From IMG/VR virus record IMGVR_UViG_3300020055_000021, positions 1 through 59,135 of that record: DNA of 59,135 nt; one strand, given 5' to 3'. The translations under genes were made by a program, and so were the position numbers. The notes beneath the pieces are model-generated. The model was not told the origin of the DNA and made no database searches. It was given only the letters and a program-made list of their open reading frames with translations. Below, in pieces: positions 1-59,135 of this stretch (position 1 is its first letter; every line of letters starts with the position of its first letter). The stretch comes from a virus (taxonomy: Duplodnaviria > Caudoviricetes).

Positions 1-160
1 AGTCCATCGAGTTGATGGTTTCGTTAATAGTTTGTGTGGTCTCTGTCCTGGTTGTCATTGTTCCCTGTGTGAAGTTAGGGACTACAGGGACAGCTTGTGC
101 TGCCCCGTGTGCCATACCAAGAATCAATCCGAGACCGATTGCTTCTTGTAGTCTAGTCAT
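1..160 (-). CDS. partial hypothetical protein with signal-peptide-like N-terminus (MTRLQEAIGLGLILGMAHGAAQAVPVVPNF...), runs off window edge
   Basis: ATG at 160-158 overlaps the TGA of the upstream minus-strand ORF; frame open to position 1. Confidence 0.75.
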   Translation of the reverse strand, partial: MTRLQEAIGLGLILGMAHGAAQAVPVVPNFTQGTMTTRTETTQTINETINSMD

Positions 161-4775: not shown

Positions 4776-4847
4776 GCGGGTGTAGTTCAGTGGTAGAACG
4801 CTATCCTTCCAAGTTAGATGTCGTCGGTTCGAATCCGATCTCCCGCT
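4776..4847 (+). tRNA. tRNA-Gly(UCC)
   Basis: cloverleaf with anticodon loop CTTCCAA; one mismatch each in the acceptor and anticodon stems. Confidence 0.92.
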
Positions 4848-30080: not shown

Positions 30081-30120
30081 CATCAAACGGTTAAGAAACG
30101 TAAAGTTTCTTAATGCTTTT

Positions 30121-30240
30121 GTTACAACCTGCCGCTTGACCGGGACTAGGCAGTTCAATCCGTCCCTCATATCCCAAGGCGAGGGGTCTTGGGAAATAGT
30201 AACTCCACCATGTCCCTGATGGTCTTACTTTTTTGCTTAA
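30121..30240 (+). ncRNA. structured psbA leader, probably the PhotoRC-II RNA motif
   Basis: stems CTGCC/GGCAG, TCCCAAG/CTTGGGA, ACCAT/ATGGT and a possible GGGAC/GTCCC pseudoknot directly 5' of phage psbA. Confidence 0.7.
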
Positions 30241-33310: not shown

Positions 33311-33745
33311 ATGAAATTATTAATGCATGAGGTGTTACAAAAAGTTAGTAACGCCAAAACAAAAGCGCAAAAGATTAAACTTCTACAAGAGTATAATACT
33401 CCAGCACTTAGACAAATTCTAATTGCAAATTTTGATGAAAGTATTATATCAGAACTTCCAGAAGGTGATGTTCCGTTTAATAAAAACGATGCGCCTGAAG
33501 ACACTGAACATACAAAGTTAGTTCATGAATATAAAAAACTATATCTATTCTTTAAGGGAGGAGCTCCACAACTAAAACAATCTCGTCGTGAAACCCTCTT
33601 CATTCAACTGCTAGAGGGTCTTCATGCTGGTGAAGCAGAGGTTCTGTGCTTAATGAAAGACAAACAAATTGGTAAACGGTGGAAGATTACTCAGCAATGT
33701 GTTGCTGAAGCATTTCCACAAATCAAATGGGGGACTCGTTCTTGA
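33311..33745 (+). CDS. conserved T4-like phage hypothetical protein
   Basis: 144 aa, RRETLFIQLLEGLH; late promoter CTAAATA at 33283. Confidence 0.8.
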   Translation: MKLLMHEVLQKVSNAKTKAQKIKLLQEYNTPALRQILIANFDESIISELPEGDVPFNKNDAPEDTEHTKLVHEYKKLYLFFKGGAPQLKQSRRETLFIQLLEGLHAGEAEVLCLMKDKQIGKRWKITQQCVAEAFPQIKWGTRS

Positions 33746-34050
33746 CATTTAATTCTGAACAAATCAAACGACTTGAGAACTATATGATTAAGATTATAGT
33801 TCAGAACACAACGCCAGAGGCAGCAAAGGACACGTCTCTACCCCGTGACAGTTACCTATTGAGGCTTGACACCGGGGAGGAGCAGTGGTATGATATAGTT
33901 CGTGGGTTGAAAGGAAACATCTTTGATGCCTACTACGATACCTTCGGGCATTGTATTCAATCAATGGAGTGGACTGAAGGCAAGATACCCGCTAAATTGT
34001 GGAGTAACATGCAAGATGCCCCACCGGAGGCCAAGAAAAAAACTAAATAA
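33727..34050 (+). CDS. hypothetical protein (start uncertain)
   Basis: ORF track; operon context. Confidence 0.7.
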   Translation: MGDSFLTFNSEQIKRLENYMIKIIVQNTTPEAAKDTSLPRDSYLLRLDTGEEQWYDIVRGLKGNIFDAYYDTFGHCIQSMEWTEGKIPAKLWSNMQDAPPEAKKKTK

Positions 34051-34054
34051 TTAT

Positions 34055-34293
34055 ATCGTTCATCCAAAGGGACTTTATATCCCTGTGGACGCAAGTAAGT
34101 CGCGGAACGGAGCGTTCATCCCATGTTAGAATTACTTCTATCAACTACACTCACTTGTCAACAATCTGATGCTATCATGCTGAAGATTAAGTTGAATGAG
34201 ACTCTACCTGAATACATTCGGATAGAGTTAGTAGAAACTGTAAAGGATTATACTAAAGAGTGTGAGTGGGACGCAAACGACTGAAGGAACGGG
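34055..34293 (+). ncRNA. tandem/interlocked glutamine riboswitch-like RNA (glnA / Downstream-peptide family)
   Basis: two CGTTCA...GACGCAA...GGAACG units; AGTA/GAA E-loop halves; AGTCG/CGACT stem; upstream of a YRG peptide. Confidence 0.75.
34123..34284 (+). CDS. 53-aa peptide encoded inside the riboswitch (MLELLLSTTLTCQQSDAIM...ECEWDAND)
   Basis: uninterrupted frame; GGAG 10 nt upstream of ATG. Confidence 0.6.
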   Translation: MLELLLSTTLTCQQSDAIMLKIKLNETLPEYIRIELVETVKDYTKECEWDAND

Positions 34294-34327
34294 GAATAAA
34301 CCACCCTAGTATTTCAGGAGACTAACA

Positions 34328-34492
34328 ATGAACACACTTAACATGATCCGTAATCAGATTCAAAAAGCATCTGCATTACATGACGCACAGATTGCTATGA
34401 CATCCTATCGTGGTGTCAAGTACGAGTGCAAGCAAGGTGCAGAAGAAATTCACGGCACCTTCTGCTATCGCGGTCATACTTACAACAAATGA
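34328..34492 (+). CDS. DUF4278-like peptide (54 aa; not in ORF track)
   Basis: AGGAG RBS; two YRG motifs (SYRGVKY, CYRGHTY). Confidence 0.8.
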   Translation: MNTLNMIRNQIQKASALHDAQIAMTSYRGVKYECKQGAEEIHGTFCYRGHTYNK

Positions 34493-34515: not shown

Positions 34516-34540
34516 AGAGGGGATACTCCCCTCTTTTTTT
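34516..34540 (+). terminator. intrinsic terminator
   Basis: AGAGGGGA-TAC-TCCCCTCT followed by T6. Confidence 0.85.
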
Positions 34541-34572
34541 GTATAGATATAGTATTGTTGCGATAGATAATA

Positions 34573-56662: not shown

Positions 56663-56791
56663 ATGACGACGCCCAACTGGCAACACCACTCTAAAAAAGA
56701 CCAGAAGCGTCGTCTGAAACCTCAGGCGTTGCGTCAGGCAAAGGCACGACGCCAAGCACTTAAACGCAAGCTTCTGTCGCCTATTGGTTAA
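56663..56791 (+). CDS. small very basic protein (MTTPNWQHHSKKDQKRRLKPQALRQAK..., 42 aa)
   Basis: translated by hand; stop lies in the tRNA-Ile D-loop. Confidence 0.65.
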   Translation: MTTPNWQHHSKKDQKRRLKPQALRQAKARRQALKRKLLSPIG

Positions 56792-56841
56792 GGCCCTCTG
56801 CTTATAACGGAGTGAAAAGGGTTCAATTCCCTTCAGAAGCA
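56770..56841 (+). tRNA. tRNA-Ile(UAU)
   Basis: GCTTCTG/CAGAAGC acceptor; CTCTG-CTTATAA-CGGAG; AAGGG-TTCAATT-CCCTT. Confidence 0.9.
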
Positions 56842-56844
56842 CTC

Positions 56845-56917
56845 GCTCCTTTAGCAATCTGGTGAATGCAGCGAACTCATAATTCGCCTGAGGCGTGTTC
56901 GATCCACGCAAGGAGCA
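56845..56917 (+). tRNA. tRNA with CAU anticodon (elongator Met, or Ile2)
   Basis: GCGAA-CTCATAA-TTCGC; paired 1-72 and no triple G-C, so not an initiator. Confidence 0.9.
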
Positions 56918-56921
56918 CCTA

Positions 56922-57004
56922 GGAGGATTGGCAGAGCGGTTAATGCAGCGGTTTGCTAAACCGTGAGGGTAACACCTCCGTTGGTTCGAATCCAACATCC
57001 TCCG
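56922..57004 (+). tRNA. tRNA-Ser(GCU)
   Basis: GCGGT-TTGCTAA-ACCGT; long variable arm; G73. Confidence 0.95.
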
Positions 57005-57008
57005 CCTC

Positions 57009-57080
57009 GGGTTTGTAACTCAATGGTAGAGTACCGGGCTTTTAACCTGTTAGTTGTGGGTTCGAGTCCCACCAGACCCA
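57009..57080 (+). tRNA. tRNA-Lys(UUU)
   Basis: cloverleaf; loop CTTTTAA. Confidence 0.93.
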
Positions 57081-57083
57081 CTA

Positions 57084-57234
<151 letters not shown>

Positions 57235-57308
57235 GGGAGATTAGCTCAGTTGGTTAGAGCGCACGACTGATAATCGTGAGGTGCCTGGTTCGAGTCCAGG
57301 ATTTCCCA
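57235..57308 (+). tRNA. tRNA-Ile(GAU)
   Basis: CACGA-CTGATAA-TCGTG; cloverleaf. Confidence 0.96.
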
Positions 57309-57349
57309 TTCCTCAACAACGCTAGTTGGGGGAGATTGTTTAATATAAC

Positions 57350-57376
57350 AGAAGTCAGTAGCGAGACTTCTTTTTT
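57350..57376 (+). terminator. intrinsic terminator-like hairpin directly before tRNA-Leu
   Basis: AGAAGTC-N8-GACTTCT plus T-run. Confidence 0.6.
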
Positions 57377-57461
57377 GGGAGTGTGGTGGAATCGGTAGAC
57401 ACACCAGACTTAAAATCTGTTGACCATTACGGTCGTGCGAGTTCAAGTCTCGCCACTCCTA
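57377..57461 (+). tRNA. tRNA-Leu(UAA)
   Basis: loop CTTAAAA; long variable arm; no intron. Confidence 0.95.
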
Positions 57462-57496
57462 TCCCACATAAATAATGATGTGTGGAAATCAAAACA

Positions 57497-57763
57497 ATGA
57501 CGTACCATTTAGAACAACGCTATGTATTTTACATGGGTAATGTTGTGAGGATGTACTTCATTCAGGGTATTCCTTATACATTCGATGAATTACCAACGAT
57601 TGTAGAGGATCACCCAGCAGTTCAAACAGAAGCGTTGGCAAACCGCGACTATGATGATGATGAACTTTACCATTGGTCCTCTTATCTTGTTATGGAAGAA
57701 TGCCATCCACTTATGTTTGATATTGCGGTAGATAACCCAGAACTCTTACCACAAGATGATTGA
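57497..57763 (+). CDS. hypothetical protein
   Basis: late promoter ATAAATA at 57468; RMYFIQGIPYTFDE. Confidence 0.8.
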   Translation: MTYHLEQRYVFYMGNVVRMYFIQGIPYTFDELPTIVEDHPAVQTEALANRDYDDDELYHWSSYLVMEECHPLMFDIAVDNPELLPQDD

Positions 57764-58250
57764 TGAATTTCGTAATCGCTTAATTGGGACATTTGAGAAC
57801 AAGAGACAAGCATATCGTAACCCTTCTAGGTTTGCATATGTTCGTATTGTTCATAGTGATATTGACGGCAATCTAATTTATGGAGAGCAGGCATATAAAC
57901 ACTCACTCAATGCCCCCTATCGCAAGTTTGTTCTGGAACCTGTGATGGGTGATGGTCGTTTGGTCGTCAAGAATTATCGAATTACTGGTGAGGGACCAAT
58001 TTCCAAAGACAGCTTGACATACTGTGATGGTTGTGATATACTGTTTAACATGGTCGATGATGTTTTTGTTGGTTCATCTGAGGGTTGTGATTGTTTAGTC
58101 AATCGACGCGGCAGAGTGAGTTATTTCACTACAAAAGCAAAGGTTGGTATCAATTACTATCATGTAATTGATCGTGGTTTTGACCCTACCACTAAAAAAC
58201 AAATGTGGGGAACAGAATATGGTCCCTTTGAATTTATGAAACAACCCTAA
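57756..58250 (+). CDS. cpeT: CpeT/CpcT-like phycobiliprotein lyase
   Basis: G.FENKRQA...P, YGEQAY....PYR, GCD, DRGFDP....WG...GPFEF. Confidence 0.88.
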   Translation: MIDEFRNRLIGTFENKRQAYRNPSRFAYVRIVHSDIDGNLIYGEQAYKHSLNAPYRKFVLEPVMGDGRLVVKNYRITGEGPISKDSLTYCDGCDILFNMVDDVFVGSSEGCDCLVNRRGRVSYFTTKAKVGINYYHVIDRGFDPTTKKQMWGTEYGPFEFMKQP

Positions 58251-58273
58251 ATAATTGAGTGTGGTACAGAGTT

Positions 58274-58744
58274 ATGGACTACCCAGACCCGCATAAACCA
58301 GTCTTGGTATTGAATGGTTCATATGAACCTATTAACATCACGAATTGGAAACGAGCAACTGTTTTACTTCTCAAAGAGAAAGCAGTGATGTTATCTAAAC
58401 GAGTTATCAAACTTGTTAAATACATCAAACTACCATTCACTCGGATGAGAGTTACCCAACCCACTCGTAATATGATTTACCAGAGGGATGGAAACAAGTG
58501 TCAGTACTGCGGTTCGACCAAAAGATTAACAATCGACCATGTTATTCCTAGGTCTAAAGGTGGCGGGGACACATGGGATAATTTGGTAGTTGCCTGCTCT
58601 AGTTGTAATACCAAAAAGTCTGATAAATTACTTGAACATACGGGTATGAAACTAACTAGAGTTCCAAAGGCACCTATCCATCCTATGTTTATGCAACTTG
58701 AAAAATCACGCGATCCTGAATGGCGTGAATATATGTTTATCTAG
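58274..58744 (+). CDS. HNH endonuclease
   Basis: RD...CQYC, TIDHVIPRSKGG..WDNLV.AC..CN..K. Confidence 0.92.
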   Translation: MDYPDPHKPVLVLNGSYEPINITNWKRATVLLLKEKAVMLSKRVIKLVKYIKLPFTRMRVTQPTRNMIYQRDGNKCQYCGSTKRLTIDHVIPRSKGGGDTWDNLVVACSSCNTKKSDKLLEHTGMKLTRVPKAPIHPMFMQLEKSRDPEWREYMFI

Positions 58745-58788
58745 AGGGAGTACAAAAGGTCTGTAGTAGAAACAGACGCCCTCTACAT

Positions 58789-58870
58789 GTCGATGTGGCG
58801 GAATTGGTAGACGCGCTGGGTTTAGGTTCCAGTGGGGTATCCCGTGGAGGTTCAAGTCCTCTCATCGACA
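58789..58870 (+). tRNA. tRNA-Leu(UAG)
   Basis: CTGGG-TTTAGGT-TCCAG; long variable arm. Confidence 0.95.
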
Positions 58871-58874
58871 CTAT

Positions 58875-58948
58875 GGGGTTGTAGCTCAGTTGGTTAGAGC
58901 GCCTGCCTGTCACGCAGGAAGTCGTGGGTTCGAGTCCCATCAGTCCCG
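58875..58948 (+). tRNA. tRNA-Asp(GUC)
   Basis: CCTGC-CTGTCAC-GCAGG. Confidence 0.96.
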
Positions 58949-59001
58949 TTGCTAATGTGGGCATCAGCAGACGCTGCCTAGTAAGTCCTACATTAGCATT
59001 T

Positions 59002-59078
59002 GCCACTATAGCTCAGCTGGATAGAGCAACGGTTTTGTAAACCGTAGGTCGTCGGTTCAAGTCCGACTTGTGGCTCCA
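59002..59078 (+). tRNA. tRNA-Thr(UGU), CCA encoded
   Basis: ACGGT-TTTGTAA-ACCGT. Confidence 0.95.
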
Positions 59079-59135
59079 GGGGAATTAGCTCAATTGGTAG
59101 AGCACCTGCTTTGCAAGCAGGGGGTTAGCGGTTCG
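59079..59135 (+). tRNA. tRNA-Ala(UGC), truncated by window end
   Basis: GGGGAAT start; CCTGC-TTTGCAA-GCAGG. Confidence 0.9.

What the first reader, a model, noticed from the sequence alone, without database searches (positions are those of the whole stretch)
34055..34293. Protein-coding ORF embedded inside the stem of a glutamine riboswitch-like aptamer
Seen: unit 2 starts CGTTCATCCCAT (34113) and closes with GTGGGACGCAAACGACTGAAGGAACG (34266-34291). Its P2 stem (TCCCAT/GTGGGA) encloses about 140 nt. That loop, together with the stem, is one clean 53-codon ORF (34123-34284). The AUG sits in the 5' stem strand, the last codons W-D-A-N-D-stop are the conserved aptamer nucleotides, and a GGAG RBS lies in the linker between the two units. 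Established: glnA/Downstream-peptide RNAs bind glutamine and normally have a short P2. Inference: ligand-driven folding and translation of the inner peptide would be mutually exclusive. The RNA could then switch between two products (inner peptide versus downstream DUF4278-like peptide), or use ribosome transit to reset the aptamer.
Basis: partly seen in the sequence, partly recalled or inferred. Interest (0 to 1): 0.9.

Follow-up and report, generated by a model that had tools for sequence, protein, structure and literature searches.

The report
Gene wrapped inside nested glutamine riboswitch
A cyanophage carries a real, conserved small protein gene looped out of a hairpin of a glutamine-sensing RNA whose two sensor copies appear to be interlocked rather than side by side, so folding of the sensor and translation of the gene must compete.

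Summary
The 53-codon ORF 34123-34284 is a real gene: phrog_504, intact in 86 of 86 relatives, lengths in multiples of 3, median dN/dS 0.19. Its AUG lies in the 5' strand of a long-range hairpin (P2b) and its last codons are the conserved aptamer nucleotides. P2b covaries across several unrelated embedded ORF families.

The "two tandem aptamers" reading is only partly right. At the one variable position of the CGUUC/GAACG helices, compensatory changes support a nested pairing: first 5' strand with last 3' strand, and middle 3' strand with middle 5' strand. That pairing is Watson-Crick in 73 of 73 sequences for both helices, while the tandem pairing is mismatched in 23-24 of 73. On natural ORF-less relatives the Rfam glnA model passes its threshold only in this nested register (41.0 and 38.4 bits). 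RNAalifold and energy calculations agree.

So an outer canonical glnA three-way junction holds, inside its P3, a permuted aptamer-like element that carries the gene. A covarying helix joins the ORF's stop codon to the Shine-Dalgarno region of the downstream DUF4278 (IF17-like) peptide gene.

Reciprocal glutamine control of the two peptides is inferred, not shown. I rate it a new variant of a known kind, of high interest.

The parts
34057..34061 (+). 5'a: 5' strand (CGUUC) of the outer P1 helix; pairs with 34287-34291
   Evidence: Position 5 covaries with 34287: C:G in 68 and U:A in 5 of 73 distinct sequences, with no mismatch. All 15 informative IMG/VR loci with A at the 3' position have U here. 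The Rfam CM and RNAalifold pair these strands in ORF-less relatives.
34063..34089 (+). P2a: local hairpin of the outer aptamer (UCCA...UGGA with an inner AGGGA/UCCCU extension)
   Evidence: Helix predicted. The equivalent hairpin covaries in relatives: 4 of its 5 RNAalifold pairs have changes on both sides. In S-TIM5, L059 and L075 this hairpin itself encloses a 66-aa ORF.
34090..34097 (+). CGC linking strand plus the 5' half of the E-loop consensus (CGCAAGUA)
   Evidence: Invariant in 66 of 66 aligned sequences. Aligned to the glnA consensus CGGAAGUA by the CM in relatives.
34098..34102 (+). P3 5' strand (AGUCG); pairs with CGACU 34278-34282
   Evidence: Perfect complement in the window. AGU/ACU is taken as P3 by the Rfam CM and AGUC:GACU is predicted by RNAalifold. 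Both strands are invariant, so there is no covariation.
34105..34109 (+). 3'a: GAACG, 5' strand of the inner hairpin H2; pairs with 34113-34117
   Evidence: The pair 34105:34117 is G:C in 44 and C:G in 22 sequences with none unpaired. Covariation score is 0.110 against a shuffled mean of 0.041, with 0 of 500 shuffles as high. It is complementary in 166 of 166 distinct sequences.
34109..34112 (+). GGAG, a possible Shine-Dalgarno for the inner ORF, lying in the stem end and loop of H2
   Evidence: Read. Present in 143 of 166 relatives and absent in 23.
34113..34117 (+). 5'b: CGUUC, 3' strand of H2
   Evidence: As for 34105-34109. If it is instead paired with 34287-34291 (the tandem reading), 23 of 66 sequences are unpaired at the variable position.
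34119..34123 (+). P2b 5' strand (UCCCA); its last base is the A of the inner ORF's AUG
   Evidence: 100% of cells are paired with 34267-34271 across 66 sequences. Compensatory variants UCCUA:NAGGA, UCUAU:AUAGA and UCCUC:GAGGA occur across other embedded ORF families.
34123..34284 (+). Inner ORF, 53 aa (phrog_504), a predicted small helical protein
   Evidence: AlphaFold gives pLDDT 80.7 with helices at 2-6, 12-24 and 30-43 and a low-confidence C-terminal tail.
34267..34271 (+). P2b 3' strand (UGGGA), which is the Trp codon plus the first two bases of the Asp codon
34272..34274 (+). Second CGC linking strand, inside codons GAC-GCA
   Evidence: GAC in 69 of 70 and GCA in 70 of 70 distinct sequences, including an invariant four-fold degenerate site. 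Mean third-position entropy of the last five codons is 0.06 against 1.13 in the ORF body.
34278..34282 (+). P3 3' strand (CGACU), inside codons AAC-GAC-UGA
34283..34286 (+). 3' half of the E-loop consensus (GAAG); its first two bases are the last two of the stop codon UGA (34282-34284)
   Evidence: Aligned to the glnA consensus GAAG by the CM in relatives.
34287..34291 (+). 3'b: GAACG, 3' strand of the outer P1
   Evidence: As for 34057-34061.
34281..34286 (+). 5' strand (CUGAAG) of the stop/SD helix S; overlaps P3 and the E-loop, so it cannot fully coexist with the outer aptamer
   Evidence: Pairs with 34312-34317 and is present in the free MFE. The covarying pair is A:U 70, G:C 76, G.U 46 and A.C 0 across 192 distinct sequences.
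34312..34317 (+). 3' strand (UUUCAG) of helix S; overlaps the first two bases of the SD AGGAG (34316-34320)
34328..34492 (+). Downstream 54-aa peptide gene (phrog_545, related to DUF4278/IF17-like) with two invariant YRG motifs
   Evidence: A 47-aa relative passes the Pfam DUF4278 cut-off at 28 bits against 25.3.
34516..34541 (+). Intrinsic terminator-like hairpin plus T run that closes the cassette

Best explanation
The region is one compact cyanophage cassette built around a nested, strand-exchanged pair of glutamine-aptamer cores.

Anatomy:
- The outer element (alpha) is a canonical glnA-type three-way junction. Its P1 is 34057-61 paired with 34287-91, its P2 is the hairpin 34063-89, its P3 is 34098-102 paired with 34278-82, and the two halves of its E-loop lie at 34090-97 and 34283-86.
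- Inside P3 sits the inner element (beta). It consists of the hairpin H2 (34105-09 paired with 34113-17, carrying the same invariant CGUU/AACG letters as a ligand-binding helix), an A, the long-range hairpin P2b (34119-23 paired with 34267-71), and a second CGC strand.
- The 53-aa gene lies in the loop of P2b. Its AUG is in the 5' strand. Its last six codon positions, stop included, supply the P2b 3' strand, the CGC strand, the P3 3' strand and half of the E-loop.

Inferred working:
- With glutamine bound, alpha (and perhaps beta) is locked. This buries the inner AUG and the 20 nt before it, turning the inner peptide down.
- The same fold withdraws CUGAAG (34281-86) from the alternative helix S that it forms with the SD region of the downstream IF17-like peptide gene, turning that peptide up. 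This is the direction reported for cellular glutamine riboswitches.
- Without glutamine the short helices are labile. Ribosomes can enter the inner ORF and, while reading its last codons, physically prevent alpha from forming.

Shown here: the ORF is real, the nested pairing holds, P2b and S covary, and the coding and RNA constraints overlap. Inferred: ligand binding, the direction of each switch, and whether beta binds glutamine.
For: 1. Real gene. 86 of 86 copies are intact with lengths in multiples of 3. Median dN/dS is 0.187 over 1767 usable of 2415 pairs, all below 1, against 0.73 and 2.71 in shifted frames. It matches phrog_504.

2. RNA constraint on top of coding. Third-position entropy is 0.06 in the last five codons against 1.13 in the body, the lowest of 48 five-codon windows. 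GCA is invariant in 70 of 70. Of 158 embedded ORFs parsed, 150 end DAND or DAHD in one frame, 6 stop inside the P2b 3' strand and 2 end DANG.

3. Nested pairing.
- Across 73 distinct sequences, 5'a:3'b is Watson-Crick in 73 of 73 (68 C:G, 5 U:A) and 3'a:5'b in 73 of 73 (50 G:C, 23 C:G). The tandem pairs are mismatched in 23 and 24.
- 3'a:5'b is complementary in 166 of 166 in a wider sample.
- The pair-counting tool gives a covariation score of 0.110 against 0.041 shuffled, 0 of 500 as high, for H2. The tandem 5'b:3'b has 23 of 66 unpaired and no covariation.
- All 17 IMG/VR hits with a non-G at the 3'b position carry A, and 15 of 15 with upstream sequence have U in 5'a. Five of those lie about 800 nt apart.
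- The matched states persist when a 590-nt gene separates 3'a from 5'b.

4. CM scoring. ORF-less relatives score 41.0 and 38.4 bits with RF01739 (gathering 35) only in the register P1 = 5'a:3'b with the inner part as an insertion in P3. Unit a alone scores 20-26 bits, and class B and C loci give no hit. The E-loop halves AAGUA and GAAG are split between the two connectors.

5. Folding. RNAalifold on 30 ORF-less doublets predicts the nested fold. Energies favour nested over tandem by 2.6-4.6 kcal/mol in class A and 6.7-8.5 kcal/mol in classes B and C, where the nested fold is the free MFE.

6. Precedent. The glutamine-II RNA crystallised as a strand-exchanged dimer with hybrid ligand-binding helices, and a two-piece RNA binds glutamine (Huang 2019, PMC6698751, passages read).

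7. P2b covaries at three positions across ORF families.

8. Helix S: 192 of 192 sequences pair at its covarying position.

9. In 123 of 199 relatives a TTGACN-16..18-TANAAT promoter ends 7-9 nt before 5'a, so the RNA would start at the aptamer.

10. Cellular glutamine riboswitches precede DUF4278/IF17-like genes and act as ON switches (Klahn 2018, PMC6212724, passages read).
Against: - No experiment on binding or expression exists here.
- The window's own CM score is below threshold at 21.7 bits, and the nested form cannot be scored because of the 177-nt insertion.
- Four of the five pairs in each CGUUC/GAACG helix never vary, so the choice between topologies rests on one position per helix.
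- The U:A variant of 5'a:3'b arose once on the tree (1 change).
- The G:C to C:G switch of H2 needs 15 changes on a flank tree (at least 9 forced). Recombination could carry the 15-nt block between backgrounds, so these are not 15 independent compensations.
- The window itself is class A, which fits both topologies, and nested beats tandem there by only 2.6 kcal/mol.
- Unit b alone reaches 34.0 bits with the Gln-II model (gathering 33) in L120, and 30.9-34.3 bits with the glnA model in L129 and L209. CM scoring alone therefore does not exclude the tandem reading.
- P3 is invariant, so it has no covariation support.
- Helix S could be a structural helix like P2 of glutamine-II rather than an OFF-state helix.
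- The free MFE keeps H2 and P2b formed without P1 and P3, so glutamine dependence of the inner AUG is inference.
- GGAG is missing from the linker in 23 of 166 relatives.
- RNA-library contigs cover the region, but contigs cannot prove transcription.
Confidence: 0.6

Rival explanations
1. Plain tandem aptamers. Unit 1 (34057-34109) and unit 2 (34113-34291) fold independently, each closing its own P1, and the ORF sits in unit 2's P2 loop.
For: In class A sequences, the window included, all four strands are identical, so tandem pairing is possible. Unit a alone gives a sub-threshold glnA hit in the window at 21.7 bits. Unit b alone in ORF-less relatives scores 30.9-34.3 bits (glnA model) and up to 34.0 bits (Gln-II model, gathering 33). 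The published view of glutamine doublets is of independent pseudo-cooperative units (Sherlock 2022, PMC9481103, passages read).
Against: About one third of natural sequences would carry C.C, G.G, U.C, C.A or G.A mismatches next to the junction in both units: 23 and 24 of 73, and 23 of 66. Class B and C loci give no Rfam hit for unit a. The E-loop halves lie in different units. RNAalifold and energies prefer the nested fold.
Confidence: 0.12
2. Strand-exchange toggle. The four interchangeable strands are kept identical because the RNA alternates between the tandem and nested pairings as part of switching, for example tandem during transcription and nested after the 3' end is made. Class B and C alleles would bias that equilibrium.
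For: CGUU/AACG is invariant in all four strands across 166 distinct sequences. The two folds are near-isoenergetic in class A, differing by 2.6-4.6 kcal/mol. The 5'a:3'a pair is transcribed about 180 nt before 3'b exists.
Against: The same invariance is expected if both helices are ligand-binding cores (Huang 2019: only the U4:A37 and C5:G36 pairs fall below 97% conservation). In class B and C the tandem state is disfavoured by 6.7-8.5 kcal/mol, yet these alleles make up 24 of the 73 distinct sequences (19 class B plus 5 class C).
Confidence: 0.13
3. Cassette slot without a regulatory link. The hairpin loops of a conserved RNA are simply tolerated landing sites where phage recombination and homing endonucleases deposit genes. 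The inner ORF would be translated constitutively, mainly co-transcriptionally, and the overlap with the aptamer would be a by-product.
For: Several embedded ORF families with no shown homology occupy the same loop (hhalign probability 1.3% between two of them). Homing-endonuclease-like genes sit in the H2 loop and in a third unit's P2 loop in L058 and L085. The A/B state is incongruent with the flank tree. ORF-less versions of the same doublet are common, with 89 distinct sequences.
Against: 150 of the 158 embedded small ORFs parsed read out through the aptamer to the same DAND or DAHD tail in one frame; 6 others end at a stop placed in the P2b 3' strand and 2 end DANG. Their AUG is always in the P2b 5' strand. 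The stop codon covaries with the SD region of the next gene. This degree of integration suggests selection on the coupling. This reading explains origin rather than function and can coexist with the best explanation.
Confidence: 0.12

Closest known systems
glnA / glutamine-I riboswitch (Rfam RF01739), including the tandem doublets counted by Sherlock et al. 2022
   Same: CGUUC-A-hairpin-CG(N)AAGUA-P3-GAAG-GAACG core. Location upstream of a DUF4278/IF17-like small gene. Occurrence in T4-like cyanophages. ORF-less relatives pass the Rfam threshold.
   Different: The 'doublet' is nested: the second unit lies inside P3 of the first and uses the first unit's apparent 3' strand. A protein gene sits in a hairpin loop and its codons are aptamer nucleotides. 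The window's own copy is below the Rfam threshold. None of the passages I read mentions these features, and the 2022 survey required that no ORF intervene.
[quoted passage not shown] 2019, PMC6698751)
   Same: The ligand-binding helix is formed between a 5' module (CGUUC + hairpin + CGC) and a GGAACGG strand supplied from elsewhere. In vitro, glutamine stabilises that association.
   Different: There it is a crystallisation dimer and an engineered split RNA. Here the exchange would be intramolecular, natural and supported by covariation.
Sensing leaders that contain a short translated ORF (the Salmonella mgtA leader with mgtL; classical attenuators; uORFs in atypical B12 riboswitches of M. tuberculosis, PMC11260477)
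   Same: Translation of an ORF inside the regulatory RNA competes with alternative RNA pairings.
   Different: Those ORFs are short leader peptides lying in expression platforms. Here a conserved 49-66 aa protein family lies inside the aptamer fold itself and shares nucleotides with the ligand-binding core. The mgtL details are recalled; I saw only search listings.
Group I introns with homing-endonuclease ORFs looped out of peripheral helices (recalled, no call)
   Same: A structured RNA tolerates whole genes in terminal loops. In L058 and L085, endonuclease-like genes occupy such loops of the aptamer array.
   Different: No splicing is involved. The host RNA is a metabolite sensor, and the small embedded ORFs are not endonucleases.

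Membership tests
Glutamine riboswitch, glnA type (RF01739) | Covariance-model score at or above the gathering score (35 bits) | tested here: not met
   In the window, only 34055-34113 hits, at 21.7 bits, and nothing reaches gathering. The nested form cannot be scored across the 177-nt insertion. ORF-less relatives with identical flanks score 41.0 and 38.4 bits.
Glutamine riboswitch, glnA type (RF01739) | P1 helix CGUUC/GAACG closing the aptamer, kept by compensatory change | tested here: met
   5'a:3'b is Watson-Crick in 73 of 73 with C:G and U:A types, and 15 of 15 A-variants are compensated. This holds only in the nested register.
Glutamine riboswitch, glnA type (RF01739) | P2 hairpin directly after CGUUC-A, with covariation | tested here: met
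   P2a: 4 of 5 pairs have changes on both sides in 30 relatives. P2b: compensatory changes across ORF families.
Glutamine riboswitch, glnA type (RF01739) | E-loop consensus (CGNAAGUA ... GAAG) flanking a P3 helix | tested here: inconclusive
   Both halves are present, at 34090-97 and 34283-86, around AGUCG:CGACU. All of it is invariant, so there is no covariation for P3.
Glutamine riboswitch, glnA type (RF01739) | Selective binding of L-glutamine | not testable with these tools
   Needs in-line probing or ITC.
Glutamine-II / Downstream-peptide riboswitch (RF01704) | CM score at or above 33 bits, with GGAACGG in the loop of P2 forming a pseudoknot | tested here: not met
   The window scores 18.1 bits. 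One ORF-less relative scores 34.0 bits for unit b. Helix S leaves 3'b unpaired in its loop, which resembles the pseudoknot layout, but S overlaps P3 and the E-loop.
DUF4278 / IF17-like small proteins (PF14105), for the downstream gene | Pfam score at or above 25.3 bits | tested here: not met
   The window protein scores 20.9 bits. The 47-aa relative in L010 scores 28 bits. Two YRG motifs are invariant in 28 relatives. So it is related to the family, but this copy is below the cut-off.
phrog_504, for the inner ORF | Profile match over the full length | tested here: met
   E 1.6e-22, residues 1-53 of 53. The family's function is unknown.

The most novel reading that the evidence does not exclude
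A natural intramolecular strand-exchanged pair of glutamine-binding cores, one canonical and one circularly permuted inside P3 of the other, encloses a protein gene. One metabolite would then gate two small proteins in opposite directions: the inner helical peptide down and the IF17-like peptide up. Ribosomes reading the inner gene would reset the sensor. The hairpin loops of this RNA would also serve as conserved landing sites for gene cassettes, including homing endonucleases.
Probability: 0.3. Interest if true: 0.9.

Novelty: new variant of a known kind. Interest (0 to 1): 0.8.

Why it matters
Riboswitch aptamers are treated as non-coding 5' leaders, and tandem glutamine aptamers as independent units. 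This case bears on three questions.

- **Dual use of the same nucleotides.** A widespread phage RNA uses the same nucleotides as ligand-sensor core and as codons. That gives a clean natural system for asking how translation and aptamer folding compete.
- **How glutamine doublets are read.** The evidence here suggests that glutamine 'doublets' of this cyanophage type are one interlocked fold. If so, the way their dose-response is modelled would change. It would also make the strand-exchanged crystal form of the glutamine-II RNA biologically relevant.
- **Phage control of host nitrogen metabolism.** Phage sensing of host glutamine is tied to two small proteins, one related to inactivating factors of glutamine synthetase. 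This makes phage manipulation of nitrogen metabolism testable with simple reporters.

Tried and rejected
- **Rfam on the window.** At gathering thresholds there was no glutamine hit. A local permissive search hit only unit a, below threshold. The ORF-bearing unit cannot be scored because of its insertion, so I used natural ORF-less relatives instead.
- **MAFFT alignments A3 and A4.** Both mis-registered the 5'a strand in 15 of 66 rows. I therefore counted the 5'a pairs with anchor-based scripts and used the pair-counting tool only on the well-aligned columns.
- My first tally of helix S was out of register by 2 nt and was redone. Five apparent exceptions at 5'a were parser artefacts, from a CGTTGA inside P2a or from a unit a that holds an ORF.
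- **ORF-less doublets.** All 89 distinct sequences are class A at 3'a:5'b, so they cannot discriminate the topologies by covariation.
- **Protein function of the inner ORF.**
  - Pfam found nothing and the Atlas found only unnamed clusters.
  - hhalign against the 66-aa embedded family gave probability 1.3%.
  - A complex prediction of the two peptides gave no verdict. It is neither evidence for nor against binding.
- **Endonuclease-like ORFs of L058.** Pfam found nothing, while PHROGs did.
- **RNA-library contigs.** They cover 33921-34484 in one run, including a 374-nt contig with no differences over 34111-34484. Contigs cannot show transcription, ends or strand, so I draw no conclusion from uncovered parts.
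- **Window promoter.** The window has no sigma-70-type promoter directly upstream of the aptamer.
- **Cellular genomes.** The scan found 6 exact matches, among them two contigs of about 190 kb that I take, without checking, to be phage-sized sequence inside assemblies.
- **Literature not seen.** Ames & Breaker 2011 and Ren et al. 2015 were not held or not read. What I say about them is recalled or taken from Huang 2019. Additional File 1 of Weinberg 2010 and Table S7 of the S-CREM1 paper may bear on whether embedded ORFs or nesting were noted before.
- **Searches behind 'not found in print'.**, plus the passages read.
Full report
**Context.** The window is a 59-kb fragment of a T4-like cyanomyovirus. 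It holds 15 tRNA hits and a PhotoRC-II element at 30116-30207. The region matches 415 phage records by blastn, all named Synechococcus, Cyanophage or Prochlorococcus. The whole record is the window.

**Observation.**
- CGTTCATCCCAT starts at 34113.
- GTGGGACGCAAACGACTGAAGGAACG lies at 34266-34291.
- GGAG lies at 34109-34112.
- A 53-codon ORF runs from 34123 to 34284, and a 54-codon ORF from 34328 to 34492.
- A terminator-like hairpin with a T run follows at 34516-34541.

**The inner ORF is a gene.**
- It matches phrog_504 over its full length at E 1.6e-22.
- tblastn finds it in 314 phage records, and six isolates annotate it as a hypothetical protein.
- A scan of IMG/VR confirmed 489 relatives among 598 pattern matches, of which 80 loci were kept.
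- All 86 complete copies are intact, with lengths of 162 nt (76), 168 nt (9) and 165 nt (1). They comprise 70 distinct DNA sequences and 61 distinct proteins.
- Median dN/dS is 0.187 over 1767 usable of 2415 pairs, all below 1. The same alignment read in the shifted frames gives 0.73 and 2.71.
- Invariant residues such as C12, E35, L36, T39 and C47 use synonymous codons freely.
- AlphaFold predicts a small helical protein: pLDDT 80.7, helices at 2-6, 12-24 and 30-43, and a low-confidence C-terminal tail. No function emerged.

**Coding and RNA constraints overlap.** The last five sense codons, UGG GAC GCA AAC GAC, have a mean third-position entropy of 0.06 against 1.13 in the body. That is the lowest of 48 five-codon windows. 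The four-fold degenerate GCA is invariant in 70 of 70.

In the wider sample other ORF families of 49-66 aa occupy the same loop. Of 158 parsed ORFs, 150 read out through the same nucleotides in the same frame and end DAND or DAHD, 6 stop inside the hairpin's 3' strand, and 2 end DANG. The tail is therefore imposed by the RNA.

**The enclosing hairpin, P2b.** UCCCA (34119-23) pairs with UGGGA (34267-71) in 66 of 66 aligned sequences; the only changes are C to U, which keeps a G.U pair. Across ORF families the helix changes on both sides, as UCCUA:NAGGA, UCUAU:AUAGA and UCCUC:GAGGA.

The same design recurs in the first unit of S-TIM5, L059 and L075. There a 66-aa ORF (phrog_6471) has its AUG in the 5' strand and its stop in the 3' strand of a covarying P2a, UCUUAUG/CAUAAGA versus UCCAAUG/CAUAGGA.

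**Which strands close the aptamer.** There are four CGUUC/GAACG-type strands: 5'a (34057-61), 3'a (34105-09), 5'b (34113-17) and 3'b (34287-91). Positions 1-4 never vary. Position 5 does, and it varies only in matched ways.
- Among 73 distinct sequences, 5'a:3'b is C:G in 68 and U:A in 5, and 3'a:5'b is G:C in 50 and C:G in 23, with no mismatch. The tandem pairs 5'a:3'a and 5'b:3'b are mismatched in 23 and 24.
- A pattern scan that left both positions free gave 166 distinct sequences, all complementary for 3'a:5'b: 136 G:C and 30 C:G.
- The pair-counting tool gives a covariation score of 0.110 against 0.041 shuffled, with 0 of 500 shuffles as high. For the tandem alternative it gives 23 of 66 unpaired and no covariation.
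- A scan for any non-G at the 3'b position found 17 loci, all carrying A. All 15 with upstream sequence carry U in 5'a, and five of them have the two strands about 800 nt apart.
- In L031 and L026 a 590-nt gene separates 3'a from 5'b, and the matched states persist.

Two caveats apply. The U:A state arose once on a flank tree. The G:C/C:G state needs 15 changes (at least 9 forced), which recombination of the short block could explain.

**The nested fold is the canonical glnA fold.** Relatives without the ORF are common, with 89 distinct sequences. They carry the same flanks around an ordinary hairpin such as UCCC-UUCG-GGGA. Such ORF-less forms also appear as contigs in metatranscriptomes, where 34120/34121 joins 34269/34270 through 8-10 nt.

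On these relatives the Rfam glnA model passes its threshold, at 41.0 and 38.4 bits against 35. It does so in the register P1 = 5'a:3'b, P2 = P2a, CGCAAGUA, P3 = AGU...ACU with the 39-41 nt in between (the rest of the inner unit) as an insertion, then AAAG-GAACG.
- Unit a alone scores 20-26 bits, and only in class A loci.
- Unit b alone scores 30.9-34.3 bits with the glnA model, and up to 34.0 bits with the glutamine-II model.
- The E-loop halves AAGUA and GAAG therefore sit in different 'units' and can only meet in the nested fold.

RNAalifold on 30 ORF-less doublets predicts the same nesting. Nearest-neighbour energies favour nested over tandem by 2.6 kcal/mol in the window, 4.6 in L004, 8.5 in L038 and 6.7 in L012. 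In the last two the nested fold is the free MFE.

Huang et al. 2019 found the glutamine-II RNA as a strand-exchanged dimer with hybrid ligand-binding helices, and showed that a two-piece RNA binds glutamine. They also report that only the U4:A37 and C5:G36 pairs of that helix fall below 97% conservation (passages read). The inner hairpin H2 shows the same conservation pattern. That is why I consider it a possible second, permuted binding core, but this is inference.

**Expression platform.** CU[G/A]AAG (34281-86) comprises the last base of the final Asp codon, the stop codon and AG. It pairs with [C/U]UU[C/U]AG (34312-17), which overlaps the SD AGGAG (34316-20). At the position of the stop codon's middle base, 192 distinct sequences give A:U 70, G:C 76, G.U 46 and A.C 0.

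This helix, S, is part of the window's free MFE. It shares C34281, U34282 and GAAG with P3 and the E-loop, so it cannot fully coexist with the outer aptamer. By analogy with Klahn et al. 2018, where glutamine binding is proposed to free the ribosome binding site of a DUF4278/IF17 gene as an ON switch (passages read), glutamine should turn the downstream peptide up.

The inner AUG lies in P2b, and the 20 nt before it lie in H2 and P3, so the folded state should turn the inner peptide down. A ribosome finishing the inner ORF covers P2b, CGC, P3, the E-loop and 3'b, and must unfold both the aptamer and S. These regulatory statements are inference.

**Downstream peptide.** The window's copy scores 20.9 bits against Pfam DUF4278 (cut-off 25.3), and a 47-aa relative scores 28 bits. 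Two YRG motifs are invariant in 28 relatives.

**Start of the transcript.** In 123 of 199 distinct relatives a TTGACN-16..18-TANAAT promoter ends 7-9 nt before 5'a. The window lacks it.

**Comparison with what is known.** Glutamine riboswitches, their tandem occurrence and their presence in T4-like cyanophages are known:
- Weinberg 2010.
- Sherlock 2022, which counts 157 doublets and 4 triplets, calls them pseudo-cooperative, and accepted a tandem only with no intervening ORF.
- The S-CREM1 paper, whose Table 4 lists a 99-nt glnA hit at 44 bits. For a 53-position model, that length suggests a match spanning a doublet.

In the passages and listings I saw I found no description of a gene inside the aptamer fold or of nested pairing. 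Ames & Breaker 2011 and all supplements could not be read. The exact doublet linker is nearly absent from 185,579 cellular genomes, with 6 hits.

**Verdict.** The architecture is a nested rather than tandem double aptamer, with confidence about 0.8 in the topology. The reciprocal two-peptide switch is the best-supported mechanism but is untested, at about 0.4-0.5. Overall confidence in the combined explanation is 0.6. I rate it a new variant of a known kind, with interest 0.8.

Noticed in passing
L058 911-1489 and 1721-2269 (also L064, L085): Two endonuclease-like genes sit inside loops of the aptamer array. One lies between 3'a and 5'b (phrog_314, homing endonuclease, E 2.5e-8). The other lies in the P2 loop of a third aptamer-like unit and ends ...SEWDASRA, reading through the aptamer nucleotides (phrog_1035, endonuclease VII/HNH, E 1.9e-17). 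The conserved aptamer DNA may serve as a homing target.
   Followed up: partly
window 34058-34063 with 34328-34333: GUUCAU of the first 5' strand is complementary to AUGAAC at the start of the downstream gene, and the two pair in the free MFE. Codon 2 is AAC in 157 of 175 Asn cases, against 222 of 399 for other Asn codons in the same ORFs (Fisher p 4e-17, sequences not independent). However, 53 of 228 downstream ORFs start differently. This could be a second arm of the OFF state.
   Followed up: partly
IMG/VR loci, ORF-less doublets versus ORF-bearing doublets: The C:G allele of the 3'a:5'b pair occurs in 30 of 166 ORF-bearing sequences and in 0 of 89 ORF-less doublets. No explanation yet.
   Followed up: no
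window 34291-34307: A small hairpin follows the last 3' strand directly (GGGG...CCCU here, GGA...UCC in other phages, which looks compensatory). It includes the last G of the P1 3' strand and the G that would pair with the CGC strand. It could be another competitor of the folded aptamer.
   Followed up: no
window 34042-34048, and relatives upstream of 5'a: In 123 of 199 relatives a TTGACN-16..18-TANAAT promoter ends 7-9 nt before the aptamer. The window has none, but it has CTAAATA 9 nt upstream, a word present in 89 of 199 relatives. That this word resembles a cyanophage late-promoter motif is recalled, not tested.
   Followed up: partly
L318 (194-kb contig) and L321 (188-kb contig): Contigs of about 190 kb, filed under a Synechococcus MAG and a Nonlabens isolate assembly, carry the exact phage doublet. 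Their size is close to the record lengths of the cyanomyoviruses seen, so I infer that they are phage sequence inside these assemblies.
   Followed up: no
window 30116-30207; 2327-2893, 4776-4847, 56770-59135: A PhotoRC-II RNA (49.5 bits) and 15 tRNA hits, most of them in two clusters near the ends of the window.
   Followed up: no
window 33311-33745 and 33727-34050: The upstream genes are a DUF6433 protein (Pfam E 6.6e-54; phrog_461) and a phrog_485 protein of unknown function. The two overlap by 19 nt.
   Followed up: no
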